From an uncultured Desulfarculaceae bacterium (GTDB taxonomy: Bacteria; Desulfobacterota; Desulfocorpusculales; Desulfocorpusculum), in the NCBI GenBank assembly GCA_964414345.1, contig CAYPWF010000005.1:6974-70973 (forward strand): a stretch of 64,000 nt of DNA, given 5' to 3'. Position 1 is the stretch's first letter. Every line of letters starts with the position of its first letter. This document shows positions 225-25,095 of this stretch, piece by piece. Made by a program: the position numbers and the translations under genes. The notes below the pieces were generated by a model. It worked only from the letters and a program-made list of their open reading frames with translations. It was not told the DNA's origin and made no database searches.

Positions 225-425
225 TAGCCCGGGTTATGCGGGATGAGAGGATAATGTTGGCTATCTTAATGACATATTTTGAGAAACCGGTGCATACTCA
301 AAAACAGGGTGAGCTTTGGTCTTAGGTTTTGGGTGCGGTTGAGTCAAAATGTGTGGAAGTGTACCCGGGGCTTGGGGGCTTGAGCCCCCAAAGTCAGAGG
401 CTTTGGAGAATAATCCGGGCTGGAG
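225..425 (-). repeat. Copy D of a ~200-bp intergenic repeat family (inverted orientation). It includes a GGGGGCTTGAGCCCCC hairpin at 375-392.
   Basis: The reverse complement starts CCAGCCCGGATTATTCTCCAAAG and contains GACTCAACC, TTTTTGAGTATGCACCGGTTTCTCAAAATATGTCATTAAGATAGCC and a terminal CGCATAACCCGGGCTAGG. All of these align with copy B at 28335-28545. Confidence 0.6.
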
Positions 426-2892: not shown

Positions 2893-3112
2893 TTGCCCTG
2901 AATCCCAGTTTGAATGAAAAATGTTTGAGCCTTTGCAACCGTATGCTAGCCAAGGAAAGCGGCGGCGTCAATTGAGGAGAAAAGGCAGAATCCAGGGCAA
3001 GCCAGAAGGGGGCAGGCGAACTCATAAAGAGCCCCCTTCGGCCAGGCAAGGTCCCAGGGGAAGGGCTTCAGGGGGAACGGACCTGCCATGGCCGAGAAGG
3101 GATTCTCTTGGA

Positions 3113-4213
3113 TCAAAAATCAGGCTCCAGCACTATCCTGCGGGTAATGTTACCAGAGTGAGCTTCCTCGAAAGCCTCCTTTATCTGGCTCATGGGCCTT
3201 GTCTGGAGGAAAGGCTCTATCTGGATCTTTCCTTTCTGAACCATCTCCAGCACCACCGGATAATACTTGGGCAGGCATCCCCATGTGCCTATTATCTCGG
3301 CGTCAAAGGCCATGAGTCTTGAGATGCTGTACTCGTTTTTGGCCATTCCGAAGCCTACCACCACCAGTTTCCCCACAAAGGACAGAAGGGTCAGGGCTAT
3401 GTCCTGGCCTGCCTTGGTGCCCGTTACCTCGAAGATCTTCCATCCCCAGTTGTGAGGGAGCTTGTTGGCTTTGCATGTTTCACGGAACTCGTTCTGAATC
3501 GTCTTTACGTCTTTGTCCTTGGAGTTGATTATGGCATCAGCCCCAAACTTCAAAGACCTCTCCAACTTCTCCTGGTTGCGCGCTATGGCCACCACATAGC
3601 GGGCACCCAAGGCCTTGACCATTTGAGTCATGTAAACCCCCACCCCGCCGGTTGCTCCTATCACAACAGCCAAATCTCCTTCTTTGAAACCGGCCCTCAT
3701 GGCCGCCTGGTAGGGGGTGGTTACAGCGTCGGCCACAACCGCGTAGTGGGAGAGGGGAATCCCTTTGGTATCCTCTATCACGCACAGATCCTGAGACGGC
3801 ACCGGGATATGACTGGAAAAACCCCCGTAAGGCCCCAGGCTGTTGCCTGGCATTTTCTGGGCCAGACACCTGTTACCCCGGCCGGCCGCGCAAATGGGGC
3901 AGTTATTGCAAGGCATGACGGCTGGGACTATCACCTTCTTTCCCAGAAGATCTCCAGCCACAACAGTGCCGCTGATCTCGTGGCCTAGGGTCAGGGGAGG
4001 CTTCTCCACTGTGGGCACCCCATCATAGAAATAACCCAAATCCGTGTGACAGACCCCGCATCCCGCCACCTCCACCAGGGACTCCCCCGGCTTCAGCTCG
4101 GGCACGTCCAGTTCAGCCCTTTCCAGTACCCCTTGCGTCACTTCGCCGGTCTCCCTGTTCTTGCTCCAGGGAGTCTTCATCTGCCATGTCTGGATCTTCT
4201 GGGGCGCTGCCAT
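3113..4213 (-). CDS. Zn-dependent medium-chain dehydrogenase. Candidate 6-hydroxycyclohex-1-ene-1-carbonyl-CoA dehydrogenase (Had/BamQ-like), judged from context.
   Basis: GVCHTDLGYFYDG with GHEISG zinc/catalytic motifs and a GATGGVG NAD-binding loop. It lies immediately downstream of bamI and is preceded by the same AGACCA leader motif as bamI. Confidence 0.55.
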   Translation of the reverse strand: MAAPQKIQTWQMKTPWSKNRETGEVTQGVLERAELDVPELKPGESLVEVAGCGVCHTDLGYFYDGVPTVEKPPLTLGHEISGTVVAGDLLGKKVIVPAVMPCNNCPICAAGRGNRCLAQKMPGNSLGPYGGFSSHIPVPSQDLCVIEDTKGIPLSHYAVVADAVTTPYQAAMRAGFKEGDLAVVIGATGGVGVYMTQMVKALGARYVVAIARNQEKLERSLKFGADAIINSKDKDVKTIQNEFRETCKANKLPHNWGWKIFEVTGTKAGQDIALTLLSFVGKLVVVGFGMAKNEYSISRLMAFDAEIIGTWGCLPKYYPVVLEMVQKGKIQIEPFLQTRPMSQIKEAFEEAHSGNITRRIVLEPDF

Positions 4214-4232
4214 GGGAACCTCCTTTCTCCTT

Positions 4233-4284
4233 CCTCTGGTCGGTCTCGCCTATCTGGTCTGTTCTGTCTGTCTGGTCTATTTCG
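4233..4284 (-). promoter_or_regulatory. AGACCA-repeat leader element immediately 5' of the RBS of the had candidate
   Basis: The mRNA strand reads CGAAATAGACCAGACAGACAGAACAGACCAGATAGGCGAGACCGACCAGAGG-AAGGAGAAAGGAGG-N5-ATG. It shares CGAAATAGAC, AACAGACCAGATAG and ACCAGAGG with the element at 5252-5285. Confidence 0.5.
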
Positions 4285-4350
4285 TGGGTTAGCAGCCTTG
4301 GGTTGGCTGAGTCAGGGAGACAGGGGGTCAAAGGCCCCCATCTTTGCGAC

Positions 4351-4575
4351 TCACCCCTCCCTTGCCGGCCTGGTATAGATGACCTTGAACCGCTCAAGGT
4401 TCGCTTCAAGACATGAGCGGCACTCCCCTTCCTCTGCAGGGGGGAGGGGCTCCAAACGCACCTCCAAACCTAGGGAGCGGTAGAGCTCCACAGCCTCGCT
4501 CAGCCTGGGCTCTGCTGCTACAAACTGCTTGGTCCAACCATCTTCCATGCTGATTTTCCCTATCGGAGCTGCCAA
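4351..4575 (-). CDS. Hypothetical small protein (74 aa) between bamI and the had candidate
   Basis: Intact ORF in the operon orientation that fills the bamI-had gap; no recognisable motif; coding status uncertain. Confidence 0.25.
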   Translation of the reverse strand: MAAPIGKISMEDGWTKQFVAAEPRLSEAVELYRSLGLEVRLEPLPPAEEGECRSCLEANLERFKVIYTRPAREG

Positions 4576-4627
4576 GTCCTACCCGGCCTGTTGCTCAAGG
4601 CTAAAAGCCTACAACTTCCCCCCATAT

Positions 4628-5242
4628 CTATTTCACCCTTTCCCCTCCCCCTCCGAGAGAGGGAGATGCCATGGCCTCGATCAAGACAAAGGCCGCCTGC
4701 AAGGCCGAAGTGGGGCAAAGCGGGAAACACTCCCTGCACTCCCAGCAGACCTTGGAAGCTATCTCAGGTATGAAACTGATCTCCCGCCTGGTCCCCCGGT
4801 CTATGAACCCCACGGCGTTCAACTTCTTTATCTCCGCACAGTACCTAACACAAAGCCCGCAAAGGATACAGAAAGAAGCCTCTTTTTCGAACCGATCGGG
4901 GTCGGCTCCATATTCCCGACCCAACTCCACCAGAACCGGTGAATGAGGTGCGTGGGCCAAAAGCAGCTCCAGGATACTTTTTCGAATCATGTCGATTTTG
5001 GGCGACCTTGTCTTAACCACCAAATCCTCTTCCACCTGATATAGACATGCCGCCACCAACCTTGACCTGCCTCGACTCTCCACCTCCACCGTGCAGATCC
5101 TACAGGCCCCGTAAGGCTCCAGTTTTTCATGATGGCAAAGGGTGGGGATACTTATCCCTTGCTTCTCAGATGCCTGAAGAATGGTCATCCCTTCTTTTGC
5201 CGCAACCTCCTTGCCGTCTATCTCCAGCCTTATGTCACTCAT
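4628..5242 (-). CDS. bamI: BamI-like: NuoG N-terminal-type 2Fe-2S plus 4Fe-4S ferredoxin subunit
   Basis: Start chosen at MSDIRLEIDGKEV, which has an RBS, rather than the ORF-track start. 2Fe-2S motif CHHEKLEPYGACRICTVEV plus cysteine clusters CILCGLCVRYC and CWECRECFPLCP. Last gene of the NuoE/F/G-like module. Confidence 0.75.
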   Translation of the reverse strand: MSDIRLEIDGKEVAAKEGMTILQASEKQGISIPTLCHHEKLEPYGACRICTVEVESRGRSRLVAACLYQVEEDLVVKTRSPKIDMIRKSILELLLAHAPHSPVLVELGREYGADPDRFEKEASFCILCGLCVRYCAEIKKLNAVGFIDRGTRREISFIPEIASKVCWECRECFPLCPTSALQAAFVLIEAMASPSLGGGGERVK

Positions 5243-5251
5243 CTCGGGGTT

Positions 5252-5285
5252 CCTCTGGTCTATCTGGTCTGTTCCGTCTATTTCG
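5252..5285 (-). promoter_or_regulatory. AGACCA-repeat leader element immediately 5' of the bamI RBS
   Basis: The mRNA strand reads CGAAATAGACGGAACAGACCAGATAGACCAGAGG-AACCCCGAG-ATG. It is a shorter version of the element at 4233-4284. Confidence 0.5.
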
Positions 5286-5345
5286 ACTGTTTGGCCCATG
5301 GGGCGCAACGGCCCTTGGAATCGTCTTCTTTCCGTGTCCGCGCCT

Positions 5346-7262
5346 TTATCCCTTAACCTCGGGTGCGGCCCCCTGCTGCACTCCGACGGGCACGGGCTGC
5401 CCGGAGATCTTCTTCACAGCATTGAAGCGGGACGGACACACCTCGAAACAGGTCCCACACTTGGTACATTTTTCCTGGTCGATGACGTGCACCACTTTTT
5501 TCCCACCGGTTACAGCCCCGGCTGGACATTTCCTAAGGCAATTCATGCAGGCCTTGCATTTCTCAGGGTCTATATAGTAGGAGATCAAATTCTTGCAGGA
5601 AAGGGCCGGGCATCTTTTCTCGCGCACATGGGCCTCGTACTCTTCCCTGAAGTATTGCAAAGTGCTGAGGAAAGGATTGGGGGCGGTCCTGCCCAGGGCG
5701 CAAAGGGAGGCCTCCTTGGCAACTACAGCCAATTCCTCCAGGAGCTGTATATCCCCTTCTTTGCCCTCCCCTCGGGTTATGCGGGTGAGCAGTTTCAACA
5801 TCTGTCTGACCCCCTCCCGACAGGGCACGCATTTCCCGCAGGACTCGTCTGTGAGGAATTCCAGGAAATACCTGGCCACATCAACCATGCAGGTATCCTC
5901 GTCCATGACGATCATCCCGCCTGAGCCCATCATGGATCCGGCCTGGGAAAGCTCGTCGAAACCCACTTGCATATCCAGCAGGCTCTCAGGAAGGCAGCCC
6001 CCTGAAGGGCCTCCGGTCTGCACTGCCTTGAAGGCCTTCCCGCCTGGGATACCGCCGCCGATGTTGTAAATGATCTGCCTCAGGGTGGTTCCCATGGGCA
6101 CTTCCACAAGGCCTGTGTTGGTTATCTTCCCCACCAGGGAAAAGATCTTAGTTCCTTTGCTGGTGTCCGTTCCAAATTCACAGAACCAATCAGCCCCTTT
6201 GTTTATGATGAGGGGCACATTGGCCCAGGTCTCCACATTGTTAAGGACGCTGGGCCGGTCCCATACCCCTTTTATGGCCGTATGAATATACTTGGGCCTG
6301 GGCTCCCCAACCTTCCCCTCCAGGGCGGTCATGAGGGCGCTGGATTCCCCGGACACAAAAGCCCCTGCCCCTCTGTGCACCTTTACCTCAAAATCAAAAC
6401 CCGAGCCCAATATGTTCTTGCCCAAAAGGCCTTTTTCCATAGCCGTTTCTATGGCATGGCCGACATTTTCCACAGCAAGAGGATACTCCTGCCTCACATA
6501 GATAAATCCCTGGTGGGCCCCCACTGCGTAGCCCCCTATGACCAGACCCTCCAGAACCGAGTGCGGATTCCCCTCGAGCAGGCTCCTGTCCATGTAGGCC
6601 CCGGGGTCTCCCTCGTCGGCATTCACAATCACATATTTGGTATCGCCTGGAGCCTTTCTGGATTCCTCCCATTTTCGGCCTGTAGGGAATCCCCCGCCCC
6701 CTCTTCCCCTTAAATTGGATCTCTTGACCTCTTCCACCACCTGTTCGGGGCTCATCTGAAAAAGCACCTTGGCAAGAGCAGAGTATCCCCCCAGGGCCAA
6801 ATAATCCTCCAGGCTCTTGGGATCAATGCTGCCGTTTGAGCCAAGCACAACTCGCTGTTGGTTCTTGTAAAAGGGGATATCTGATTCATGCACTATCTTC
6901 TGTCCGGTTCCGGGCTCCTCGTACAGAAGCCTCTCCAGGAGCTTGTTTTGCTTTACGGTCTCCGAGACTATTTCAGGCACATCTTCGGGCTGCACCTTCA
7001 GGTAGCATATGCCTTCAGGATGGATGACTATGATGGGACCTCTTTCGCAGAAGCCGTGACAGCCCGTCCTCCTAAGCTCAACATCCCCTTCCAGGCCTTG
7101 TTTCTTGAGCTCCTCCTGGATGGCCACAGCCACTTCCCTGCTTCTGGCAGCATGACAAGCCGATCCAGAACACAAGGAAATACAGCGTCTGTGAGGGTCT
7201 CTTCTGGAAAGAATCTCCTTCCTTAGCTCTTCCAGTTCAGCGGGTGAATTTATCCTGGGCAT
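5346..7262 (-). CDS. bamH: BamH-like: NuoF/HydB-type NAD(P)H-binding flavoprotein with N-terminal thioredoxin-like 2Fe-2S and C-terminal 2x[4Fe-4S] domains
   Basis: GGGFPTGRKWE (NuoF FMN/NADH motif), SCGKCVPCREG, and C-terminal CKACMNCLRKCP...CTKCGTCFEVCP; 638 aa (~69 kDa). Confidence 0.85.
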   Translation of the reverse strand: MPRINSPAELEELRKEILSRRDPHRRCISLCSGSACHAARSREVAVAIQEELKKQGLEGDVELRRTGCHGFCERGPIIVIHPEGICYLKVQPEDVPEIVSETVKQNKLLERLLYEEPGTGQKIVHESDIPFYKNQQRVVLGSNGSIDPKSLEDYLALGGYSALAKVLFQMSPEQVVEEVKRSNLRGRGGGGFPTGRKWEESRKAPGDTKYVIVNADEGDPGAYMDRSLLEGNPHSVLEGLVIGGYAVGAHQGFIYVRQEYPLAVENVGHAIETAMEKGLLGKNILGSGFDFEVKVHRGAGAFVSGESSALMTALEGKVGEPRPKYIHTAIKGVWDRPSVLNNVETWANVPLIINKGADWFCEFGTDTSKGTKIFSLVGKITNTGLVEVPMGTTLRQIIYNIGGGIPGGKAFKAVQTGGPSGGCLPESLLDMQVGFDELSQAGSMMGSGGMIVMDEDTCMVDVARYFLEFLTDESCGKCVPCREGVRQMLKLLTRITRGEGKEGDIQLLEELAVVAKEASLCALGRTAPNPFLSTLQYFREEYEAHVREKRCPALSCKNLISYYIDPEKCKACMNCLRKCPAGAVTGGKKVVHVIDQEKCTKCGTCFEVCPSRFNAVKKISGQPVPVGVQQGAAPEVKG

Positions 7263-7271
7263 TGTCCCGTC

Positions 7272-7739
7272 CTACTCGTATTGATTGAGCACTTCTGATG
7301 TTTTGGAGGGCGCCATGGCCCCGTAAGTTTTCCCGTCTATTTCCATGACCGGCCCCAGAGCGCAGCATCCCAGACAATTCACTGTTTCCAGGCTGAACTT
7401 AAGATTTGCATCGGTCTCTCCGGCCCTTATCCCGGTCAAACCCTCCACGGACTCCAGGACCCTCTGGGCCCCCCGCACATGACAAGCGGTACCCATGCAG
7501 ATATGGATCTCGTGACGGCCTTTGGGCACCAAACTGAAGGCCTTGTAAAAAGTGGCTATGTGCTGAATGCGGCTAAGGGGCACATCCAGCCTTTGGCTGA
7601 CCCTCTCCAAGGCCTCTTTGGGGAGCCAGTGGATTTCCCTTTGAATCTCCAGCAGCACCTGGATAAGAGAGCTGGCATCTCCGTCATACTTGTCTAGGAT
7701 TTCATCCAGTTTGCCCCTGTCCATGGCCTCCTCGTCCAT
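7272..7739 (-). CDS. bamG: BamG-like: NuoE/HoxE-type 2Fe-2S thioredoxin-like subunit
   Basis: CMGTACHVRGAQ...CLGCCALGPV, the canonical NuoE cysteine pattern; 155 aa. Confidence 0.85.
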   Translation of the reverse strand: MDEEAMDRGKLDEILDKYDGDASSLIQVLLEIQREIHWLPKEALERVSQRLDVPLSRIQHIATFYKAFSLVPKGRHEIHICMGTACHVRGAQRVLESVEGLTGIRAGETDANLKFSLETVNCLGCCALGPVMEIDGKTYGAMAPSKTSEVLNQYE

Positions 7740-7841
7740 ACGGTTTCTCTTTTAGTGATTTTTTTATCATCCAATCCGCATTGAATTTATGCCTGTCAGA
7801 CGGACCAAGCAATTTACCTCCCCGGTCCCCCAGGACTGCCT

Positions 7842-8606
7842 TCAAGCCAAGGCAAAGCTCTTGGCCTCTCCGTCATACCTTATAAGACCTTTTCTGGAAA
7901 GGCCTATGAGCTGCTTGGATACTTGAGAGCCGCTAAGCCCCAGTCGCTCGGCTATCTGCCCTGTGGAAAGAGGGGTTCTTGCAAGCAGAAGAGCTATCTC
8001 CTGTTTTTCCAATTCCTCCAGGATGGTCTGGCGAATCAGAGCCTTGCCCTCCTGGCTCCCGAAAAACCTCACATATTCTTGCTCAGACCTTGAAAGCTTG
8101 AGCCTTTCCGCCATGGCAAGCCTTATGTAGGGAACCAGCCTTGCAGCAGCCTCCAGGCCGATTCCAACTCTAGCCTGGTCGGCCCCCTCTCCTGTACCCA
8201 GGGGCCCGAGCTTGGTCAGCTTCTTGGCAAAGTCATTCATTACCTCGGCGAACCTAATCCCTTCGGAAGCGCTCACCCACTCCAATCTGAGCCTCTCAGG
8301 ACTCAGGCCTATGTGTTCCAGGATTGCTTTCCCCACATATACCATGCCCAAGGCGTCATAATTCCCCTCTGTAATGTAATGGCACTCTCCGGGCCAACAT
8401 CCGCCTATGAAGACCCCGTCCGCCCCACCTGTGAAGGCCTTCAGTACGAAAGAGATATCTACCCTGCCGGAGCACATTAAACGCACCAGCCTCACGTAAG
8501 GAGGGTACTGATAACGGGAAACCCCTGCCAAATCCGCCCCTGCGTAACAACACCAGTTGCAGGAAAACCCTATTATCCTGGGCTTGAATTGAAAACCAGC
8601 GCTCAT
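7842..8606 (-). CDS. bamF: BamF-like: MvhD (methyl-viologen-reducing hydrogenase delta)-type domain with a C-terminal winged-helix-like extension
   Basis: Start at MSAGFQFKP with a GGAGG RBS, 4 nt after the bamE stop. MvhD motifs FSCNWCCYAGADLAG, RLMCSGRVD and FIGGCWPGECHY. The C-terminal ~110 aa contains TGQIAERLGLSGSQVSKQLIGLSRKGLIRYDGE, which is wHTH-like. Confidence 0.8.
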   Translation of the reverse strand: MSAGFQFKPRIIGFSCNWCCYAGADLAGVSRYQYPPYVRLVRLMCSGRVDISFVLKAFTGGADGVFIGGCWPGECHYITEGNYDALGMVYVGKAILEHIGLSPERLRLEWVSASEGIRFAEVMNDFAKKLTKLGPLGTGEGADQARVGIGLEAAARLVPYIRLAMAERLKLSRSEQEYVRFFGSQEGKALIRQTILEELEKQEIALLLARTPLSTGQIAERLGLSGSQVSKQLIGLSRKGLIRYDGEAKSFALA

Positions 8607-8610
8607 GATC

Positions 8611-11600
8611 TTAACGTCCTCCGGTTCCCGTGGCCTTTTTTTCCTCTTCCAGGTTTTGCTCCAGATCAAAAAGCAGTCCTTCTATCTGTGCGTACACTTG
8701 CTCGTCCTTGTAATGCTTGAGGAAAATGGCCCCTGTGGGACACTTGGTGTTGCAAAGCCCGTCCCCTTTGCAAAGCACAGGATTCACGCTGGCCTTTCGG
8801 CCCTGGGGGGTGTCGCGGAACTCTATGGCCCCATAAGTACAGCAGGAGATACAGGCCCCACAGCCCACACACCTCTGCTCCTCCACATCACAGACGGATC
8901 CAGAGGCCACTATTCTGTCCTGGGAAAGCAGGGTTAGGACTCGGCCGGCAGCGCCATAGGCCTGGGAGACAGCCTCTGGAATATGCTTTGGATAGTGGGC
9001 AATGCCGCAAAGATAAACCCCGTCAGCTCCGAAATCCACAGGCCTGAGCTTTACATGAGCCTCCTGGAAAAATCCGTCCGGGTTTAGGTTCACCTTGAAC
9101 AACTGGGCCAACTCCCTGGTTTTGGCCGAGGGGATAACTGCCGCCGCCAAGGCCACTAGATCAACACTTAGTTCCAGTTTCTTGCCCAGCACATAGTCCG
9201 GACAGCTCACTTTAAGGACACTTCTGCCTTCCTCTGTGGCCGCCTCAACCTCGGGCATACTCTGGGGTTCATACCTTATGAATCTAACACCTTTTTCGGC
9301 CGCTTCTCTGTAAGAGTCCTCCCTGAAGCCATAGGTCCTCATGTCCCTGAAAAGAACGTAGACGTCCAAAGCGGGGTTCAGCTCCTTGAGCAGAAGGGCG
9401 TTTTTCACCGAATGGCTACAGCATATTCTGGAGCAGTAATTCCTCTCCTGATTCCTGCAGCCCACACACTGGATCATGGCAATGCTTTGGGCTCCCAGAA
9501 TCCTTTCATCCTTCTTGGCTATGAGCTCTTCCAGCTCTATGTTGGTAAGCACCCTGGGATCTTGCCCGTAGAGATATTCGGTGGGCTTGTACTCCTCTGC
9601 TCCTGTGGCTATCACAGCCGCCCCATGCCGGATCTCCTGCATTCTCCCCTGCGACCTGACACTCGTTGTGAAATTGCCCACATAGCCCTTGCAGCCCAGG
9701 ATGGAGGCCCCAAGGAGCACGTGTATCAGGGGATGCCGGTTGACCTTTTCAATGAGATGTCCCAAATAGTTCTGGACGTCTATTCCCTCCAGGGTGTAAT
9801 GGAGCCTTCGCGCTATCCCTCCCAGCTCATCCTCCTTCTCCAGCAGGTACACTTCATGGCCCTGCTCCGCTATGCTGAGGGCGCAGGTCATACCCGCAAT
9901 CCCACCTCCCACAACCAGGGCCCTCTTGTCCACAGGAAGGTAGAATTCTTCCAGAGGCTCCAGCATCGTGCTTCTGGCCACAGACATTCTGACTATGTCC
10001 TTGGCCTTCTCTGTGGCCTCCTCTTTCTCCCTGGAGTGGACCCAGGAACAATGCTCCCTGATGTTAGCCATGTCAAAGAAATACTGGTTGATGCCGGCCA
10101 TGCGCAGGGTGTCCCTAAACAAGGGCTCGTGTGTCCTTGGAGTGCATGCAGCCACTATCACTCTGTTGAGGCCCTTCTCCTGTATGGTGTCCGCTATGGC
10201 CTTGGCAGAATCGCTGGAGCAGGAGAAAAGCTGCTCCTGGGCATGGGCCACATGGGGTAGGCTTAGGGCGTAATCCACCACAGAGGGGACATCCACCACA
10301 CGTCCTATATTGGCCCCACAGTGGCAAACAAAAACTCCCACTCTGGGTTCCTCTTGGGATACATCTCTCTCAGCAGGGTAAACCCGCTCAGTGGCCAGCT
10401 TTCCTCGCCTTCGCCTCAAGAGCTCCCCGCATTTTGAGCCGGCTCCGCTTGCACTCACAACGCTCTCTGGTATGTCCACTGGCCCCTGGAAGGCGCCGCT
10501 TACATAGATGCCGGGACGGGTTGTCTCTATGGGATTGCCTGGGTTTGTTTTGCAGAAACCGTGCTCATTCAGCTCTATGCCGAATATCTTAGCCAGATCC
10601 TCTGCCCCCGCGGGCGGCCTCAGGCCCACGGACAAGACCACCATGTCAAACTCCTCTTCCTTGACCCCCTCCTCGAAGGTGGAATACCTTATTCTTACCC
10701 CTTTGGTCTCAGGGTTCTCCCCAACCACCGAGACGTAGCTTCTCACAAACCTGATACCCGGCAAGCGCTCTGTTCTTTGGTAAAACCTCTCGAAATCCTT
10801 CCCGTAGGATCGGATGTCGTTGTGGAATATGGTGCATTGGGCCTCGGCGTCATGATCCTTGGTAAGGATCACCTGTTTTTGGGTGTATGTGCAGCAGACC
10901 GCCGAACAGTAGCTGTTCCCCCCCGGCAAAACGGTCCTGGAGCCCACGCAATGGATCCAAGCCAGCTTCCTGGGATGTTTTAGATCCGAAGCCCTTCTTA
11001 TCTCCCCCTCATAGGGACCAGTGGAGCAAAGTATCCTCTCGTACTCCAGGCTGGTGACCACATTGTGGAAACGGCCGTAACCGTACCGCTCCAACATCTG
11101 CCGGTCCACTATTTTGTAGCCTGGAGACAGTATGACAGCCCCCACCTTCACTTCCACCCTCTCTGGTTTCTGGGTGAAATCTATGGCCTTGTTCTTACAT
11201 ACGGTCTGGCAGATCCTACATTTCTTTTCCTTGAGATAAAGGCAGTTCTCGTCGATGTATGTGACCAGGGGGATGGCCTGTGAAAAGTATATGTGGATGG
11301 CCTTGTTCTTGGATATGTCCTGGTTGAAGGGATCGGGGACTTTCACAGGGCAATATTCCACGCAGGTTGTACAGCCGGTGCACACATCCTCCAACACATA
11401 CCTGGGCTTTTTCACCAGGGTCACTCTAAAGTCCCCGGGTTCTCCCTCAAGCCTCTCCACCTCCGTATAGGTCATGATCTCTATGTTCTGGTGCCTGCTG
11501 CATTCGATGAACTTGGGAGACTCTATGCACATGGAGCAATCATTGGTGGGAAAGGTCTTGTCCAGAAGAGCCATGTGTCCGCCTATGGCCGGAGACTCCT

Positions 11601-11745
11601 CTACAAGAAAGACCTTGAAGCCTGCTGTGCCCAAATCCAGGCAAGCTTGGATGCCGCTTATCCCGGCCCCCACCACCATCACATCTGCACAATTGGCGGT
11701 GGAAAGTTTCTCCAGCAACTTCATCATCTCAGAACGGATTTCCAT
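8611..11745 (-). CDS. bamE: BamE-like: tandem double-FAD HdrA-like flavoprotein with multiple 4Fe-4S clusters (1044 aa)
   Basis: Two dinucleotide-binding motifs (VVGAGISGIQACLDLGTAGFKVFLVEE and VVGGGIAGMTCALSIAEQGHEVYLLEKE), the HdrA-type CSMCIESPKF, and a C-terminal ferredoxin CVGCGACISCC...CKGDGLCNTKCP. The size matches the ~110-kDa BamE. Confidence 0.85.
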   Translation of the reverse strand: MEIRSEMMKLLEKLSTANCADVMVVGAGISGIQACLDLGTAGFKVFLVEESPAIGGHMALLDKTFPTNDCSMCIESPKFIECSRHQNIEIMTYTEVERLEGEPGDFRVTLVKKPRYVLEDVCTGCTTCVEYCPVKVPDPFNQDISKNKAIHIYFSQAIPLVTYIDENCLYLKEKKCRICQTVCKNKAIDFTQKPERVEVKVGAVILSPGYKIVDRQMLERYGYGRFHNVVTSLEYERILCSTGPYEGEIRRASDLKHPRKLAWIHCVGSRTVLPGGNSYCSAVCCTYTQKQVILTKDHDAEAQCTIFHNDIRSYGKDFERFYQRTERLPGIRFVRSYVSVVGENPETKGVRIRYSTFEEGVKEEEFDMVVLSVGLRPPAGAEDLAKIFGIELNEHGFCKTNPGNPIETTRPGIYVSGAFQGPVDIPESVVSASGAGSKCGELLRRRRGKLATERVYPAERDVSQEEPRVGVFVCHCGANIGRVVDVPSVVDYALSLPHVAHAQEQLFSCSSDSAKAIADTIQEKGLNRVIVAACTPRTHEPLFRDTLRMAGINQYFFDMANIREHCSWVHSREKEEATEKAKDIVRMSVARSTMLEPLEEFYLPVDKRALVVGGGIAGMTCALSIAEQGHEVYLLEKEDELGGIARRLHYTLEGIDVQNYLGHLIEKVNRHPLIHVLLGASILGCKGYVGNFTTSVRSQGRMQEIRHGAAVIATGAEEYKPTEYLYGQDPRVLTNIELEELIAKKDERILGAQSIAMIQCVGCRNQERNYCSRICCSHSVKNALLLKELNPALDVYVLFRDMRTYGFREDSYREAAEKGVRFIRYEPQSMPEVEAATEEGRSVLKVSCPDYVLGKKLELSVDLVALAAAVIPSAKTRELAQLFKVNLNPDGFFQEAHVKLRPVDFGADGVYLCGIAHYPKHIPEAVSQAYGAAGRVLTLLSQDRIVASGSVCDVEEQRCVGCGACISCCTYGAIEFRDTPQGRKASVNPVLCKGDGLCNTKCPTGAIFLKHYKDEQVYAQIEGLLFDLEQNLEEEKKATGTGGR

Positions 11746-11968
11746 ATCTCATCCCCTCATGGTTGAAAACCTAGGCCAGAACCATCCAAACCATACCATA
11801 CGCCAAAGTCCCTCATCGGGGGTTAAACCCCAGGCCCTTGTAAGAGCTTCACATTTTCCGACTCAAGCCCAAGCAGAACCGGAAATAAAGCTACCTATGA
11901 GCATGGACCATTTTTCATCTTGCCGTGACCCCCAAGAAGGCCCAAATCAGGCTCCTGAGCAACACAAT

Positions 11969-13129
11969 CTAAACCACCTCAGCCAAAACTTCGCTGATCT
12001 CCTTGATCTCTATCACTTCGCTGTCAGGCCTGTTGAGCCTGCTGTCTTCGAAATTGGTTATGCAGTAAGGGCAGGAGGTGACCAAGACCCTGGCCCCTGT
12101 CTCCACAGCCTGCTGGAGCCTGAGGTCAGAGAACCTCTCGTTCCTGGGGGTTTCCATCCAGATGCGCCCGCCTCCTCCCCCGCAACACAGGCTGCTTTCC
12201 CGCTGGTCGGGCATTTCCAGGAGCTCCAGCCCTGGTATGCTCTTGAGGATCTGACGGGGCTCCTCGAATACGTTGTTGTGCCTGCCCAGGTAGCATGGGT
12301 CATGGTAGGTCACGGATTTAGGGAACTCCCCTTTTACCTCCAGCCTGCCCTCCTTTATAAGCTCCCAGAGGTACTGGGAAATGTGCACCACCTCCAGGTT
12401 CATGCCCAGAGCTGGGTATTCGTTCTTGAAGGTGTGGTAACAATGTGGGGAGGAAACCAGTATTTTTCTTACTCCATGGTCTACGAAACTCTTGATGTTT
12501 TCCCTGGCCAGCCGTTTGAAAAGCTGCTCGTCGCCTGTTTTTCGGATGCTCTCCCCGCAGCAGTTCTCCTTGGGGCCCAAAATCCCGAAGTCCACCCCGG
12601 CCTTGCTGAGGATAGTGGCGGTTGCCTTGGCCACCTTTTTCAGCCTGGCATCGTAGCTTGGGTAGCAGCAAGCAAAATAGAGGATTTCGGTGCCTTCCTC
12701 GTAGCTCTTGACCGGGAGCCCATCTGCCCAGCGGGCCCTGTTGGCCCTTTCCTCGTTTAGGGGATTGCCCTGTCCAACCAGGCTTGCGCTAACCGTACGA
12801 ATGGGTTTCACCGGATTAGGGAATATGCCGTAATCCGTGGCTATCTTGCGAAGCGCCACTCCTGCCTCTATCTGATTAACACCCCTGGGACAGCGCTGGG
12901 GACAGGTCCCACAGGTGGTACAGCGCCAGATCTCCTCCCCCTCTATTTCCGTGAGACCGAAGACCCCTTCGCGGATTATCCTTCGCATGCTGAAACTGGT
13001 GACCCGGTTCCAAGGGCATACGGCATCACAAAGACCGCATTGATAGCAAAGCCTGAAGGATTCCCCCCCGGATTGCTCTACCAGCTCTATGATCTCCTTG
13101 TAAGGCGCCACGGTCTCCACTTCACTCAT
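11969..13129 (-). CDS. bamD: BamD-like: HdrD/GlcF-type Fe-S protein with 2x[4Fe-4S] and two CCG cysteine-rich domains
   Basis: CYQCGLCDAVCP and CTTCGTCPQRCP ferredoxin motifs, followed by CCG-type motifs (CCYPSYDA..., CCGESIRK, CCGGGGG). Confidence 0.8.
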   Translation of the reverse strand: MSEVETVAPYKEIIELVEQSGGESFRLCYQCGLCDAVCPWNRVTSFSMRRIIREGVFGLTEIEGEEIWRCTTCGTCPQRCPRGVNQIEAGVALRKIATDYGIFPNPVKPIRTVSASLVGQGNPLNEERANRARWADGLPVKSYEEGTEILYFACCYPSYDARLKKVAKATATILSKAGVDFGILGPKENCCGESIRKTGDEQLFKRLARENIKSFVDHGVRKILVSSPHCYHTFKNEYPALGMNLEVVHISQYLWELIKEGRLEVKGEFPKSVTYHDPCYLGRHNNVFEEPRQILKSIPGLELLEMPDQRESSLCCGGGGGRIWMETPRNERFSDLRLQQAVETGARVLVTSCPYCITNFEDSRLNRPDSEVIEIKEISEVLAEVV

Positions 13130-13240
13130 CTCCTTCCAAGGCAGGCTTCTCGATCAAGAAGCACAGGGGCTCCAGGCCCAAAGAAGCCTTGGCCCTTGTT
13201 GCGTGCCCCTCCAGGGTTCAAGGTCACTTCCCAGCCACCC

Positions 13241-13789
13241 TCATTCTTTCTTGGAAACTTTCTCACCCGAAACTCTAGCTATGGTCTCTATGACCTTCTC
13301 CATACCATATTTTTCCAAGAGGGCTTCAACACCCATCTCCAGATCCTCGGGCTTGGCATCTTCTTGCCCTTCCTCTTCCCTCTCCTCGTAGGTCAAGGCA
13401 TCCACCAAACACCACTTCACGCACATGGGCTCTTTGAGCTCCGGGTCGTCCTCGCACATGTCGCACTTGAGGGGCAGTCCTGAGTCGGGCTCCTTGAAAA
13501 GATCCCTGGAAGAGCAGGAGGCGTTACAGAAGTTGCATTCCCCGTAGTCCCTTCCGTCTATCACATAAGAATGTCTTCCGGCGCACTCGGCCTCGGCATG
13601 ATACCCGGCCCTGATAGGCAGAAAAACATTGTCCAGTTCGTCCCTAATCACCCTTATCCTGGATCTGGAAGGGTTGTTGCTGGCGTACTTTGGCGAGGAA
13701 TGAAAGGCTGAGCAGGCAACCTCGCAAGCCCTGCAGCCGTTACACTTGTCCACATCAACCTTTATGGATTTTATCTTCTTTTTTTGCAC
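13241..13789 (-). CDS. bamC: BamC-like: small poly-ferredoxin (4Fe-4S) electron-transfer subunit
   Basis: CNGCRACEVAC, CNFCNASC and CDMCEDDP...CVKWC cluster-binding motifs; 182 aa (~20 kDa); directly downstream of the AOR-family gene. Confidence 0.75.
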   Translation of the reverse strand: MQKKKIKSIKVDVDKCNGCRACEVACSAFHSSPKYASNNPSRSRIRVIRDELDNVFLPIRAGYHAEAECAGRHSYVIDGRDYGECNFCNASCSSRDLFKEPDSGLPLKCDMCEDDPELKEPMCVKWCLVDALTYEEREEEGQEDAKPEDLEMGVEALLEKYGMEKVIETIARVSGEKVSKKE

Positions 13790-13925
13790 CGTCGACTCCT
13801 TTCCCGCGGCCCGAGTCTTCCTACAAGGCCCAAAACTAATCTAAGAGTCTTCCCAGACTTCAGAACCAAGACCCCCTCACGCTGCTTCCAAACTCCTTAG
13901 ACCCAGCTTCCAAGTCTCACCCCGC

Positions 13926-15890
13926 CTACCCCTCCAGAATGCCCCTTTCCACAAAGTCCTGGTAAACATAATCCAAGCCCAGGTTCTGCAAGGTCTCCTT
14001 GGTGGGTATACCCTGGCTGTTCCAGCCCTTGTATCTGTAATATTCCTCCAAGAGCTGGTTCTCATATTCCGGGAATCTCTTTTTCCAGTGATCATCCGGG
14101 GGGCGCTCGTCCTGCCTTCTCATGCCTTTCCTTATGTTTATGGATCTGACCATGTTCCTGACCCTGCTGGCTGCGCTCCAGAGGGAATCCTCGTCCATGT
14201 CCAGACCTGTGGCATAAGAGATTAAGGGCGCCAGGTTGTGGATGTGGTATGGAGGCTTTAGAGGGAAGGAAGAAAGCCCCGCGCAAATCCCTGTGGAATC
14301 ATCTATATAGTGCATTATCTCCTGCCAGTCCACCAGGTCGCAGATCACATCCACTGAGGGATAGAAGGGAAACACCTTGCCCTCCTCACCCCACTCCAGG
14401 ATAAACTCCTTGAATTTCTCCTCTTTCCCGCTGGGCACATGCACCCAATCCCTCACGAACTCCTCCCTCACGTCCTTGGGCAGAGGGGTCTGGGGTATCT
14501 GGCCTTCGATCTGGGTGATATTTATCTTTTCCCCCGTGGACCACATGAGGAAGTAAATGGGATTCAACATGCCCAGTTTGATGGGGATCTGTTCATGCTT
14601 TTTTATGGTGTTGTGGTCAAAGGCTTCGGCCCCTTTTCCTATGCGGCGGGCCGCCCAATAAACCCCGTCGGCCAGCACATCCCCTATACCCTCTCTTCTC
14701 ACGATCCTGTCCAGGAGCCAGTTGAACTTGCCTTCGGTGTCGGAGGGCATGCCTTCTAGGTCCTTGTCGGTCAAAATCCCCGCCTCGTGAAGCTCCAGGG
14801 CAAAGGCCATGACCTGCGGGGTGGAGAACCCGTCGACCCCGTACTCCTGGGCACGGCCCGCTATTCTGAGGCCGAAGTCCAGATCGTCAGCCATGGCTGC
14901 CATCACGTAGGTCAGCTTGGAGAAGCACTTCATGGTGTAAGTGGGATAGCCTGGTATGGAGATGATGCCAGCGCAGCGCACCGGACAGTTGTAACAGCTT
15001 ATGAGCCTCTTTCTGGCCGACTCCAGAGTCTCGGTCCATTTTTTCTCCACGTCCTTGTTCCAGAAGTCCTTCCTCCTGTGCCTGGCATTCCCCCAAGCAA
15101 AGGCTATGGTGTGCCACTCCTCGTCGTGCACGGCCATTTCCTGGGGAGAGCCTATCCTGGCCAGAATCGGAGGTACACCCTTCAAGGGATTGTTAGCCCG
15201 GTGCTGTATGTATTCCAGTATCTGGTTGCATATCTCCATAAACTCGGCGGACTTGGCGATGTTAAGATCCTTGGTGCCCCGCACAGCTATGGCCTTTAGG
15301 TTCTTGTCCCCCATGATGGCCCCAAGGCCCAACCTGCTGGCGCTTCCCCTATGACTCTCTATGGAGGAGAAGAAAACCCTGTTCTCCCCAGCCAGGCCTA
15401 TGGCCATGACCTGGGCTTTGGGCTCCTTGAGCTCCTCCCTGAGCAGCTCTGCGGTCTCGTAGGTGCTCTTCCCCCTGAGGTGACTAGCATCCCTTATCTC
15501 CACCTTGTCGTTGTTTATCCAGATGTACACCAGCTCAGGCGACTTGCCCCTGATGACAACCTTGTCATACCCGGCGTACTTCAGCTCTGGAGCCCAAAAT
15601 CCACCCATCATGGAGTAACCCATGAGCTGGGTCTGGGGTGAAATGGAGGAAATTATGGTCCGGTTGGCTCCAGGGGCCGGGGTGCCACAGAGGAGCCCTG
15701 AGCTGAATATGAGGAGGTTTTCGGGGGAGAAAGGCTCTACCTCCGGAGGTACCCTGTCCCACAACATCTTGGAATTGGTTCCAAGCCCACCCAGGTAAAG
15801 CGGAGTAAGCCTCGGGTCGGTCTCCACCCTCTCTATGCTTCCTCTGGACAGATCAATTTCCAGGTTGAACCCTGTCTCGGCATACCTCAT
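13926..15890 (-). CDS. bamB: BamB-like: aldehyde:ferredoxin oxidoreductase (AOR)-family tungsten/molybdenum-pterin enzyme. Candidate active-site subunit of class II benzoyl-CoA reductase.
   Basis: 654 aa; AOR-family N-terminal domain (MRYAETGFNLEIDLSRGSIERVETDP...LGGLG...) and an AOR-type C-terminal domain; sits at the head of the bamBCDEFGHI-ordered operon. Confidence 0.8.
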   Translation of the reverse strand: MRYAETGFNLEIDLSRGSIERVETDPRLTPLYLGGLGTNSKMLWDRVPPEVEPFSPENLLIFSSGLLCGTPAPGANRTIISSISPQTQLMGYSMMGGFWAPELKYAGYDKVVIRGKSPELVYIWINNDKVEIRDASHLRGKSTYETAELLREELKEPKAQVMAIGLAGENRVFFSSIESHRGSASRLGLGAIMGDKNLKAIAVRGTKDLNIAKSAEFMEICNQILEYIQHRANNPLKGVPPILARIGSPQEMAVHDEEWHTIAFAWGNARHRRKDFWNKDVEKKWTETLESARKRLISCYNCPVRCAGIISIPGYPTYTMKCFSKLTYVMAAMADDLDFGLRIAGRAQEYGVDGFSTPQVMAFALELHEAGILTDKDLEGMPSDTEGKFNWLLDRIVRREGIGDVLADGVYWAARRIGKGAEAFDHNTIKKHEQIPIKLGMLNPIYFLMWSTGEKINITQIEGQIPQTPLPKDVREEFVRDWVHVPSGKEEKFKEFILEWGEEGKVFPFYPSVDVICDLVDWQEIMHYIDDSTGICAGLSSFPLKPPYHIHNLAPLISYATGLDMDEDSLWSAASRVRNMVRSINIRKGMRRQDERPPDDHWKKRFPEYENQLLEEYYRYKGWNSQGIPTKETLQNLGLDYVYQDFVERGILEG

Positions 15891-16031
15891 TTCGTCCCCC
15901 CACTGTCGAGCTTAGCGCTTTTGCTTCTTGGAACCTAGGAGCCCCCCGAAAGCAGCTGTTTCAAGCTGTCTTGCGAACCCCTAGGCAGGGCCTCGAACCG
16001 GAAAGGCCTGAGACCTCATCACTAAATTCAT

Positions 16032-16052
16032 ACTAGTCTCTTTGCGACTAGT
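16032..16052. promoter_or_regulatory. Operator-like site ACTAGTCTCTTTGCGACTAGT (two ACTAGT palindromes, 15-bp centre spacing) upstream of bamB, with an adjacent ACCAGATAG motif at 16058-16068
   Basis: Near-identical to the site upstream of padR at 21506-21528. Located in the 220-bp gap between the activase-gene stop (16110) and the bamB start (15890). Confidence 0.55.
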
Positions 16053-16109
16053 ATCAATCTATCTGGTCCCTGAAAGCTTGTCAACACTTTTTTTGATTCC
16101 GGAGATGGT

Positions 16110-17006: not shown

Positions 17007-17094
17007 GCCTCGCTCCTGCCTTATGCCTTGCAGCCTGTCTGAGAACCGGCCTTTCTCCCAAGCCGTAATTGGTCACCTGTGGGGATGGCTTACC

Positions 17095-24889: not shown

Positions 24890-25095
24890 GCACTAACCCG
24901 GATTATACTGCAAGGCCTGTGACTTTGGGGGCCACGCCCCCCCAAGCCCCAGGCACTCTCTAGCATATCCCGACTCTGACCAGGGCCGAATCTGAAACCG
25001 AGGATCAGGGTGTCTTTGAGCATGGCCCGGTTTGTCCGAACAATCCATTGAGATAACCCGCATTATTTACTTATGGTGAATGATGTGGGCCGCGT
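24890..25095 (+). repeat. Copy A of the ~200-bp intergenic repeat family
   Basis: Starts CTAACCCGGATTATACTGC; contains CCAGGGCCGAATCTGAAACCGAGGATCAGG and TTTGAGCATGGCCCGGTTTGTCCGAAC. Its terminal TAACCCGCATTATTTAC is in direct rather than inverted orientation. Confidence 0.6.

What the first reader, a model, noticed from the sequence alone, without database searches (positions are those of the whole stretch)
4233..5285. Shared AGACCA-repeat leader element immediately 5' of the RBS of bamI and of the had-like dehydrogenase
Both genes are preceded, within 10-25 nt of the start codon, by CGAAATAGAC...AACAGACCAGATAG...ACCAGAGG. The mRNA strand is built from tandem AGACCA/AGACAG units, and the longer copy (4233-4284) differs only by two internal duplications. 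A related ACCAGATAG also occurs 5' of bamB (16058-16068). Because the element is inside a co-oriented operon and at the RBS, it may be a translational or RNA-level control element, for example a binding site for an RNA-binding protein or processing site. It could instead be internal promoters with direct-repeat response-regulator sites. This would give differential expression of the electron-input module end and of had.
Basis: seen in the sequence. Interest (0 to 1): 0.6.

Follow-up and report, generated by a model that had tools for sequence, protein, structure and literature searches.

The report
Dispersed 9-base tandem repeat in leaders
The two look-alike sequences in front of bamI and had are real. 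They are local copies of a 9-base tandem repeat scattered through many unrelated intergenic regions of this bacterial group, not a control element special to the benzoyl-CoA reductase operon.

Summary
On the mRNA (minus) strand, 4236-4280 and 5255-5299 are each five head-to-tail 9-nt units (consensus A-Y-A-G-A-C-S-R-R). Each array ends directly at the Shine-Dalgarno sequence, of had and of bamI respectively. The copies differ by two 9-nt units.

The genes next to them are unrelated (LpxC, CoA ligase, antitoxins, hibernation factor). One array lies on the same contig as the bam operon of a 95.5%-identical relative.

Arrays are mostly intergenic. They vary in unit number between close relatives and favour the sense strand just upstream of start codons (28 versus 5). 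As RNA they are A-rich, U-poor and almost structure-free. In most other lineages the bamH stop overlaps the bamI start, so the spacer is lineage-specific.

Most likely they are co-transcribed generic repeat spacers that keep the ribosome-binding site exposed. A global binding factor is not excluded. The 'ACCAGATAG' at bamB is a single 9-mer inside a sigma-70-like promoter match.

The parts
4236..4280 (-). Array A: five 9-nt units (ATAGACCAG ACAGACAGA ACAGACCAG ATAGGCGAG ACCGACCAG) in the leader of the had-like gene. A degenerate unit ACCCACGAA lies at 4281-4289.
   Evidence: Sequence read. Tandem Repeats Finder gives period 9 with 4.9 copies. AGAC-N5-AGAC phasing is shown.
4214..4235 (-). Purine-rich continuation AGGAAGGAGAAAGGAGGTTCCC, with the Shine-Dalgarno sequence AAGGAGG (4219-4225) of had. 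The start codon is at 4213-4211.
   Evidence: AAAGGAGGTT..CATG is invariant in all seven relatives aligned.
5255..5299 (-). Array B: five 9-nt units in the bamH-bamI spacer (ATGGGCCAA ACAGTCGAA ATAGACGGA ACAGACCAG ATAGACCAG). The two 5' units are degenerate.
   Evidence: The orthologous arrays in L183, L009, L007 and L003 hold 5 to about 9 units.
5243..5254 (-). AGGAACCCCGAG: together with the last G of the array it forms the Shine-Dalgarno-like GAGG (5252-5255) of bamI. The start codon is at 5242-5240.
   Evidence: CAGAGGAA is kept 8-9 nt before the ATG in WIN, L183, L009, L007, L003 and L004.
5300..5345 (-). Non-repeat part of the lineage-specific bamH-bamI spacer.
   Evidence: It is conserved among the close relatives. 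It has no counterpart at other array loci. It is absent in most other lineages, where the bamH stop overlaps the bamI start.
16056..16084 (-). Sigma-70-like promoter match TTGACA-17-TAGATT upstream of bamB. It contains the isolated ACCAGATAG (16059-16067) and is not part of the repeat family.

Best explanation
Shown:
- The two elements are local members of a dispersed family of short tandem repeats with 9-nt units (consensus A-Y-A-G-A-C-[C/G/T]-R-R). The family occurs at many unrelated, mostly intergenic sites in genomes of Thermodesulfobacteriota, including the window's own Desulfarculaceae lineage.
- In this lineage an array-bearing spacer separates bamH from bamI, and a second array precedes had. 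In most other lineages the bamH stop overlaps the bamI start.
- Unit number changes in 9-nt steps between close relatives.

Inferred:
- The arrays lie inside a co-oriented operon with no promoter-like or terminator-like site next to them, so they are probably transcribed as part of the bam mRNA.
- The sense-strand RNA is A-rich, U-poor and nearly unable to fold. The most likely effect is therefore passive and in cis. A structure-free spacer directly 5' of the Shine-Dalgarno sequence would replace translational coupling by independent initiation, acting like a standby site or accessible leader. Array length would be a drifting tuning parameter.

This is not a regulator specific to the bam genes. 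I put the identification as a generic dispersed repeat at about 0.9, and the passive-leader mechanism at about 0.45.
For: Dispersal:
- 105 of the 120 loci hold phased arrays of 3-23 units, 228 arrays in all.
- Carrier contigs span roughly 36-65% G+C.
- Carriers with a taxonomic name include Syntrophorhabdaceae and other Thermodesulfobacteriota and Desulfarculaceae.

Same genome:
- L183 is 95.5% identical to the window over 8.4 kb.
- Its contig carries another array next to an integron integrase.

Unrelated neighbours: DUF3786, CoA ligase, MBL-fold protein, DUF433 and UPF0150 antitoxins, Y1 transposase, acyl-CoA dehydrogenase, LpxC, DegT and a hibernation factor.

Only the array is shared. The non-repeat flanks of the window copies match nothing at other array loci.

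Position and turnover:
- Only 18 of 233 arrays lie inside long ORFs.
- Window and L183 arrays differ by 18-nt and 9-nt indels.
- Other relatives hold 2 to about 9 units or have lost the array.

Lineage-specific spacer: in 58 of 71 other bam loci the bamH stop overlaps the bamI start by 4 or 8 nt.

Orientation relative to genes:
- An ATG-started ORF with a coding signal begins 0-30 nt downstream of 28 arrays in sense, against 5 in antisense.
- Within 150 nt the counts are 66 against 25, out of 172.
- With a Shine-Dalgarno requirement the counts are 45 against 9, out of 189.

RNA properties:
- Sense arrays fold at -0.048 kcal/mol per nt, against -0.254 for random same-length segments.
- Composition is A 45% and U 7.6%.
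- The two window leaders show no significant structure (z = -0.25 and -0.60).

A parallel case in the same window: a purine-only heptamer repeat fills the spacer between two ABC-transporter cistrons (49843-50058).
Against: - No expression data exist. Transcription through the arrays and any effect on translation are inferred.
- A purely passive spacer does not explain why six of nine unit positions are nearly invariant (92-99%) across carriers of very different G+C content. It also does not explain the strict 9-nt phasing.
- All 19 inverted array pairs share one geometry. These regularities suggest a trans-acting factor or a common mobile origin.
- The unit statistics are partly biased. Detection required AGAC, and the loci were retrieved with one specific 20-mer.
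- Gene calls for the orientation statistics were home-made (ORF length plus a GC3 signal), not a trained gene finder.
Confidence: 0.5

Rival explanations
1. The arrays are a multivalent binding platform for an unidentified global factor that recognises AYAGAC at 9-nt phasing. One version is an oligomeric RNA-binding protein acting at the ribosome-binding site, working like TRAP, HutP or Hfq/Crc. The other is a DNA-binding, nucleoid-associated or ribbon-helix-helix-type protein, as was proposed for the tandem repeats of Geobacter metallireducens. bamI and had would then belong to a large regulon.
For: - Positions 1-6 of the unit are 92-99% invariant, while positions 7-9 vary in a two-state manner over 1171 units from carriers of roughly 36-65% G+C.
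- Phasing is strict.
- Arrays favour the sense strand next to start codons.
- All 19 inverted pairs share one geometry.
- There is a precedent hypothesis for paired tandem 7-9-nt repeats in G. metallireducens (PMC2700814).
Against: - No candidate protein was found. A Y1-transposase-HTH gene is flanked by arrays at only one locus.
- Unit number varies freely between 95%-identical genomes, and arrays can be lost, as in the L004 bamI and L007 had leaders. That is unusual for a tuned operator.
- Units at the 5' edge decay, as in ordinary minisatellites.
- A 9-bp phasing is off the DNA helical repeat.
- The unit does not match the triplet spacing of TRAP or HutP sites.
Confidence: 0.25
2. The arrays are neutral or selfish DNA with no effect on expression. 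They would be remnants of insertions of a repeat-carrying mobile element, since maintained and resized by replication slippage. Their position next to start codons would only reflect where insertions are tolerated.
For: - In a GC-rich subfamily the array sits inside an element of about 350 bp bounded by terminal inverted repeats: GTAAGTGATCACAGGGTGGCGGC ... GCCGCCACCCCCCGTGACCAGTTGC.
- Arrays are dense in a cassette-like island of toxin-antitoxin genes.
- Copy number is hypervariable and edge units are degenerate.
- The window's genome holds other small repeat families.
Against: - The arrays have persisted at both bam sites across relatives whose BamI is only 84-92% identical.
- The unit consensus is kept across distant carriers.
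- The sense bias next to start codons is 28 against 5, which tolerance alone should not produce.
- The window copies have no terminal inverted repeats and no shared flanks.
Confidence: 0.2
3. One reading: the element is a control element specific to bamI and had. It would be a processing site, an RNA-binding-protein site, or an internal promoter with response-regulator direct repeats, and would set differential expression of the end of the electron-input module and of had.
For: - Within the 64-kb window the arrays occur only at these two genes.
- Both abut the ribosome-binding site.
- They are retained at both sites in several relatives.
Against: - The family occurs at more than 100 unrelated loci, including in the same species-level genome.
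- Bam clusters of about 70 other lineages lack it.
- There is no promoter-like site, and no room for one.
- The L004 bamI and L007 had leaders have lost the array although the genes are intact.
Confidence: 0.03
4. Array B is coding. It would be an N-terminal extension of BamI, or an upstream ORF, translated from the ATG at 5299-5297. JGI and ENA gene callers annotated it this way (223-aa and 221-aa products).
For: - The array is in frame with bamI and open in WIN, L183 and L007.
- P0001 and P0007 begin MGQTAEIDGTDQIDQRNPE-MSDIR... and MDQTGEIHGIDQIDGTDQRNPE-MSDIR....
- A 9-nt unit preserves the reading frame.
Against: - No Shine-Dalgarno sequence precedes the upstream ATG.
- L009 has AGG in place of the ATG.
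- In L003 the frame ends in a TGA overlapping the bamI ATG.
- Most of the 120 listed homologues are about 199-206 aa long, and the three sequences fetched without such an extension begin at MSEI/MTEI.
- A conserved GAGG lies 8-9 nt before the downstream ATG.
- 12% of family units carry T at position 7, which gives TGA or TAG in that frame.
- Array A has no such frame.
Confidence: 0.02

Closest known systems
Multicopy tandem hepta-, octa- and nona-nucleotide repeats of Geobacter metallireducens ('putative global regulator binding sites', classes 1-3; Aklujkar et al. 2009, PMC2700814)
   Same: - Both are short units of 7-9 nt in tandem sets, present at dozens of intergenic places, including between genes of one operon (proB-proA).
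- Both are often paired on opposite strands at variable distance.
- Both are lineage-specific, associated with mobile elements, and of untested function.
- The class 2 consensus TCTCCGTS[Y] shares CCGTCT-like letters with the antisense of the present unit (YYSGTCTRT).
   Different: - The unit sequence and host differ.
- The Geobacter sets have a fixed small number of units (3-5). Here there are 3-23 units, hypervariable in number.
- The two window copies are unpaired.
- The sense-strand bias next to start codons was not reported for Geobacter.
STRR (short tandemly repeated repetitive) heptamer sequences of heterocystous cyanobacteria
   Same: Both are dispersed tandem arrays of a short unit in intergenic and intra-operon spacers. 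Both are co-transcribed, lineage-restricted and still without a proven function (own knowledge; mentioned in papers listed).
   Different: STRR units are 7 nt, not 9. The sequences and the phylum differ, and no homology is implied.
Modular small mobile repeats with a variable internal module, such as pneumococcal BOX elements (boxA-(boxB)n-boxC) and MITEs
   Same: In the GC-rich subfamily the 9-mer array is the variable internal module of an element of about 350 bp with terminal inverted repeats. Insertion is intergenic and close to gene starts.
   Different: The window copies have neither terminal inverted repeats nor the conserved flanks. BOX modules are 45-59 nt long and fold into stable hairpins, whereas these arrays do not fold.
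Unstructured standby sites and A/CA-rich translational enhancer leaders (own knowledge of E. coli work)
   Same: Both are structure-free, A-rich sequence directly 5' of the Shine-Dalgarno sequence or start codon. Some family members abut start codons that have no Shine-Dalgarno sequence at all.
   Different: Those are defined functionally in model organisms and are not repeat families. No functional test exists here.
Multi-site RNA platforms of oligomeric regulators: TRAP (G/U)AG repeats, HutP UAG repeats, Hfq (ARN)n and Crc CA motifs
   Same: Both are a regularly phased short motif on the mRNA, next to or overlapping the ribosome-binding site.
   Different: The period here is 9 nt, not 5-7 or 3. 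Only two of three triplets per unit fit A-R-N. No cognate protein is known in these organisms.

Membership tests
Dispersed AYAGACSRR 9-nt tandem-repeat family (defined here) | At least three head-to-tail units with AGAC phased every 9 nt and A-Y-A before it | tested here: met
   Array A has 3 exact-AGAC units of 5. Array B has 3 of 5.
Dispersed AYAGACSRR 9-nt tandem-repeat family (defined here) | The same unit occurs at many unrelated loci | tested here: met
   At least 120 stretches matched, and 105 of them carry arrays. Neighbouring genes are diverse.
G. metallireducens class 2 tandem repeats (TCTCCGTS[Y]) | Unit consensus TCTCCGTS[Y], three units per site | tested here: not met
   The antisense unit here is YYSGTCTRT, and there are 5 units per site.
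G. metallireducens class 2 tandem repeats (TCTCCGTS[Y]) | Sites paired on opposite strands | tested here: not met
   The window holds no inverted partner: AGAC-N5-AGAC does not occur on the plus strand anywhere in the window. Nineteen pairs do exist elsewhere in the family.
Cyanobacterial STRR | Heptanucleotide unit in heterocystous cyanobacteria | tested here: not met
   The period is 9. The carriers are Thermodesulfobacteriota.
MITE or BOX-like modular element | Terminal inverted repeats and conserved flanking modules around the array | tested here: not met
   No terminal-repeat match lies near either array, and the flanks have no homologues. The feature is met only in the GC-rich subfamily.
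REP/BIME palindromic repeats | A self-complementary unit forming a stable hairpin | tested here: not met
   Sense arrays fold at -0.048 kcal/mol per nt against -0.254 for controls.
Response-regulator direct repeats at an internal promoter | A promoter (-35/-10) downstream of or overlapping the repeats, with 10-11-bp phasing | tested here: not met
   No sigma-70-like site was found at 3900-5700 apart from one inside had. The array-to-ATG distance is 12-25 nt and the period is 9.
TRAP- or HutP-type RNA operator | 9-11 (G/U)AG triplets separated by 2-3 nt (TRAP), or UAG every 7 nt (HutP) | tested here: not met
   By inspection of the sequence there is one YAG per 9-nt unit, plus variable CAG or GAG.
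Known RNA families (Rfam 15) | A match to a covariance model | tested here: not met
   No relevant match was found in window 3000-17500 at E<=1. Only tRNAs were found in 13 array loci.
Translated repeat (N-terminal extension of BamI) | A conserved start codon, a ribosome-binding site and an open frame in the relatives | tested here: not met
   The ATG is missing in L009. The frame is broken in L003. Most of the 120 listed homologues are about 199-206 aa.
Hfq/CsrA-type binding site | Protein binding to (ARN)n or GGA motifs | not testable with these tools
   Each unit offers only AAYAGA, which is two ARN triplets. About 20% of units carry GGA. A binding assay is needed.

The most novel reading that the evidence does not exclude
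The AYAGACSRR arrays are the cis-element of an undescribed post-transcriptional or nucleoid-level system found across several lineages of the phylum. An oligomeric protein would read the invariant AYAGAC core at 9-nt phasing on the sense strand next to start codons. It would thereby control accessory genes (toxin-antitoxin cassettes, mobile DNA) together with some catabolic operons such as bam. Array length would act as a fast-evolving gain control.
Probability: 0.2. Interest if true: 0.7.

Novelty: new member of a known kind. Interest (0 to 1): 0.35.

Why it matters
- For the bam operon: there is no dedicated regulatory element at bamI and had. This lineage has replaced the widespread bamH/bamI stop-start overlap by a repeat-filled spacer with its own ribosome-binding site. 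Gene callers mis-annotate that spacer as an N-terminal extension of BamI.
- More generally: I found no prior description of this 9-nt repeat family in the searches run, and it is widespread in Thermodesulfobacteriota. Its core is strongly constrained, it favours the sense strand at gene starts, and its copy number is hypervariable.
- If a factor reads it, that would be a new global control layer. If not, it is a useful case of how slippage-prone repeats colonise intercistronic leaders, and a practical strain-typing (VNTR) marker.

Tried and rejected
- Rfam searches of the window region and of 13 array loci found nothing relevant.
- Sigma-70 promoter and terminator scans around both arrays, and in three spacers of divergent array pairs, found nothing.
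- Folding of both leaders gave z-scores near zero.
- The coding or uORF reading of array B was rejected: the ATG is missing in L009, the frame is broken in L003, and P0001 and P0007 merely show that gene callers read the array as an extension.
- The bamB ACCAGATAG is not a third copy. It is a single 9-mer inside a promoter-like site.
- Phage and viral contigs gave only two chance hits without arrays. Plasmids gave no match.
- A Y1-transposase-HTH protein flanked by arrays was considered as the general trans-factor. It is present at one locus only.
- The window copies are not remnants of the element bounded by terminal inverted repeats. They have no such repeats and no shared flanks.
- Literature searches by unit sequence and by '9-bp or nonamer tandem repeat' found no description of this family. 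Only analogues turned up.
- From memory, AGACCA is a half-site of GntR/HutC operators (TGGTCTAGACCA), AGAC is half a MetJ box, and CAGACGG resembles the Neisseria uptake sequence. None was pursued, because the units are direct repeats with 9-nt phasing and the hosts differ.
Full report
**Observation.** All genes of interest lie on the minus strand.
- Pfam assigns 13926-15890 to an AOR-type BamB, 7842-8669 to an MvhD-like BamF, 7272-7739 to BamG, 5346-7262 to a NuoF-like BamH, 4628-5242 to a 2Fe-2S/4Fe-4S BamI, and 3113-4213 to a Zn-dependent dehydrogenase (had-like). Unrelated GDP-mannose dehydratase and epimerase genes follow.
Both bamI and had are preceded by CGAAATAGAC / GAACAGACCAGATAG / ACCAGAGG.
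- The 15-mer and the 10-mer each occur exactly twice in the 64-kb window, only here, and above every shuffle.
- The element is best described as a tandem array of 9-nt units. Tandem Repeats Finder gives period 9 with 4.9 copies.
- Array A (4236-4280) reads ATAGACCAG ACAGACAGA ACAGACCAG ATAGGCGAG ACCGACCAG. It is followed by AGGAAGGAGAAAGGAGG and then the had ATG.
- Array B (5255-5299) reads ATGGGCCAA ACAGTCGAA ATAGACGGA ACAGACCAG ATAGACCAG. It is followed by AGGAACCCCGAG and then the bamI ATG.
- The 'two internal duplications' are two extra units.

**Relatives of the locus.** The identical locus was assembled independently in several public runs, so the arrays are not assembly artefacts.
- Contigs encoding BamI proteins 84-92% identical keep the synteny bamH - bamI - small ORF - had.
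- They carry the same kind of units at the same two places, but in different numbers. The bamI leader has about 9 units in L003, 6 in L007 and 5 in L009. The had leader has 2 units in L003 and L004.
- The array is lost or degenerate in the L004 bamI leader and the L007 had leader.
- A metagenome contig 95.5% identical to the window over 8.4 kb (L183) differs from it by an 18-nt indel in array B and a 9-nt indel in array A. The arrays therefore behave as variable-number tandem repeats.
- The 3'-most unit fused to the Shine-Dalgarno sequence (…AGACCAGAGGAA; …AAAGGAGGTT) is conserved.
- In a scan of one genome per species, the only close relative was a Desulfarculaceae MAG (L009, 91%), and only it had arrays.
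- In 58 of 71 other lineages the bamH stop overlaps the bamI ATG by 4 or 8 nt, and there is no spacer.
- The roughly 100-nt spacer with its array is thus a derived feature of this lineage.

**Is it specific to bam? No.** I built a 20-mer that matches all five then-known instances (ACRGAAYAGACCAGATAGRC; roughly 10-20 chance hits expected by my own rough estimate).
- A few are chance hits inside genes, but 105 of the 120 loci contain phased arrays of 3-23 units, 228 arrays in all.
- One of them (L152) lies on the same 92-kb contig as the bam operon of the 95.5%-identical relative, about 70 kb away, beside an integron integrase (TIGR02249, 396 bits).
- Genes directly downstream of arrays are unrelated to aromatic metabolism. 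They include a DUF3786 protein, an acyl-CoA ligase, an MBL-fold protein, DUF433 and UPF0150 antitoxins, a Y1 transposase, an acyl-CoA dehydrogenase, LpxC, a DegT aminotransferase and a ribosome hibernation factor.
- Carrier contigs range from roughly 36 to 65% G+C.
- Where cluster members carry names, they are Syntrophorhabdaceae and other Thermodesulfobacteriota.
- The non-repeat flanks of the window's two copies have no counterpart at other array loci. Only the array is shared.

**Properties of the family.**
- Over 1171 units from 190 distinct arrays the consensus is A(.92) Y(.96) A(.97) G A C [C .48 / G .36 / T .12] R(.96) R(.96). The AGAC core was imposed by my detector; the other positions were not.
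- Only 18 of 233 arrays lie within long ORFs.
- An ATG-started ORF of at least 70 aa with a GC3 coding signal begins 0-30 nt downstream of 28 arrays in the sense orientation, against 5 in antisense. Within 150 nt the counts are 66 against 25, out of 172.
- When a Shine-Dalgarno sequence is also required, the counts are 45 against 9, out of 189.
- A cruder flanking-gene count showed no bias, so the bias concerns arrays close to starts.
- Several arrays abut start codons that have no Shine-Dalgarno sequence.
- As RNA the sense strand is A 45% and U 7.6%. It folds at -0.048 kcal/mol per nt, against -0.254 for random segments of the same loci.
- The two window leaders have no significant structure.
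- No Rfam family matches, and no sigma-70-like promoter lies near the arrays.

**Contexts elsewhere.**
- In a GC-rich subfamily the array is the variable inner module of an element of about 350 bp. That element has terminal inverted repeats (GTAAGTGATCACAGGGTGGCGGC … GCCGCCACCCCCCGTGACCAGTTGC) and a conserved body with inverted-repeat (hairpin-like) segments, so it is MITE-like.
- On a 370-kb contig from the same sample as L183, a run of small co-oriented genes, including two matching antitoxin-type families (DUF433, UPF0150), is punctuated by arrays immediately 5' of their ribosome-binding sites.
- All 19 inverted array pairs have the geometry antisense - 26-53 bp - sense. Three of their spacers hold no promoter-like site. 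This remains unexplained.
- The window's genome also has other small repeats. A MITE-like element of about 190 nt occurs in four copies.
- In addition, a purine-only heptamer repeat fills the spacer between two ABC-transporter cistrons (49843-50058). The same heptamer adjoins a 9-mer array in L117.

**Mechanism.**
- Shown: these are generic, dispersed, hypervariable tandem repeats inserted into two intercistronic leaders of the bam operon in one lineage.
- Inferred: they are co-transcribed, because the operon is co-oriented and no promoter or terminator lies nearby. Because they cannot fold and are U-poor, they act as a structure-free spacer that exposes the downstream ribosome-binding site. 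Independent initiation would then replace the ancestral stop-start coupling of bamH and bamI.
- I rate this passive-leader role at about 0.45, a factor-binding platform at about 0.25, and no effect at about 0.2.
- The near-invariant core across distant carriers and the fixed pair geometry keep the factor hypothesis alive.
- The free variation in unit number, the loss of arrays in some relatives and the decay of edge units argue against a tuned operator.
- The coding reading of array B, adopted by JGI and ENA gene callers (223-aa and 221-aa products), is rejected. The ATG is absent in L009. The frame is broken in L003. Most listed homologues are about 199-206 aa. A conserved GAGG sits 8-9 nt before the true ATG.

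**Comparison with what is known.**
- Full-text searches by unit sequence and by '9-bp or nonamer tandem repeat' found no description of this family.
- The closest precedent is the set of multicopy tandem 7-9-nt repeats of Geobacter metallireducens. They are intergenic, occur also within operons, are often paired on opposite strands, lie near insertion sequences, and were proposed but never shown to bind global regulators (PMC2700814).
- Cyanobacterial STRR heptamers and modular BOX or MITE elements are further analogues.
- The present family shares the kind but not the sequence, unit length or fixed copy number of any of them. I therefore file it as a new member of a known kind.

**Verdict.**
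- The bam-specific interpretation is not supported, and the generic RNA-leader idea remains plausible.
- Interest is modest for the bam operon itself. It is somewhat higher for the repeat family as a whole.

Noticed in passing
window 49843-50058 (minus strand): The spacer of about 215 nt between a 694-aa gene (50059-52143) and a 319-aa gene whose N-terminus looks like an ABC-transporter permease (48883-49842; assigned by eye, not searched) consists almost entirely of purine-only tandem repeats on the mRNA strand. They are GAAGA[AG]T heptamers (about 15 copies) plus GGGGA-type units. This is a second repeat-filled intercistronic leader. The same heptamer adjoins a 9-mer array in L117.
   Followed up: partly
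window 230-420, 24890-25090, 28337-28532, 52147-52340: Four copies of a MITE-like repeat of about 190 nt with inverted ends (…CCGGATTATTCTC … GAGAATAATCCGGG…). It is also present in L124 and L183. A Logan contig ends at the first copy.
   Followed up: partly
window 4351-4548 (minus strand): A small ORF of 65 aa between bamI and had is conserved in all relatives (69-92% identity; invariant W5, two Cys, and VIYTRP). It has no Pfam match and is an uncharacterised small protein of this bam cluster.
   Followed up: partly
window 7842-8669 (minus strand): The BamF-like MvhD/FlpD protein carries a C-terminal winged-helix DNA-binding-like domain (IclR/MarR/ArsR-type matches at residues 218-267).
   Followed up: no
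window 16030-16084 (minus strand): Two overlapping sigma-70-like promoter matches (TTGACA-17-TAGATT and TTGATA-16-TAGTAT) lie about 170 nt upstream of bamB. They are followed by a palindrome, ACTAGTCGCAAAGAGACTAGT.
   Followed up: no
L095, L105, L126, L145, L151, L159 and others (e.g. L151 about 480-900): An element of about 350 bp is bounded by terminal inverted repeats in GC-rich Thermodesulfobacteriota contigs. It has a conserved body with inverted-repeat (hairpin-like) segments, an internal 9-mer array of 4-14 units, and optional insertions of about 27 to about 50 nt, at least one of them hairpin-like. No Rfam match was found.
   Followed up: partly
L124 5700-12800 and L133 (contig Ga0209381_1000047): A dense island of small co-oriented genes (DUF433 and UPF0150 antitoxin-type families, and an ORF whose N-terminus resembles a four-helix-bundle protein). 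Each gene is preceded by a 9-mer array plus further repeat modules (TTTACCCAA…TTGGGTAAA palindromes and GGGGAGGGGTTTATCCCCTCCC hairpins). The layout resembles a cassette array. An integron integrase lies on another contig of the same sample (L152 3838-5073).
   Followed up: partly
L133 1524-2441: A 305-aa protein with an IS200-type Y1 transposase domain plus a Fis-type HTH is flanked on both sides by 9-mer arrays, a layout reminiscent of REP-associated transposases. It was found at this locus only.
   Followed up: partly
window 45156-45237: A 21-nt tandem repeat (GCAAATCTTTGGTCCATCTGG, 3.9 copies, 95% matches). It was not examined.
   Followed up: no
window 5243-5299; proteins P0001, P0007: Public gene calls (JGI, ENA) extend BamI by 17-19 residues through the repeat array. 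This is probably a mis-annotated start.
   Followed up: yes
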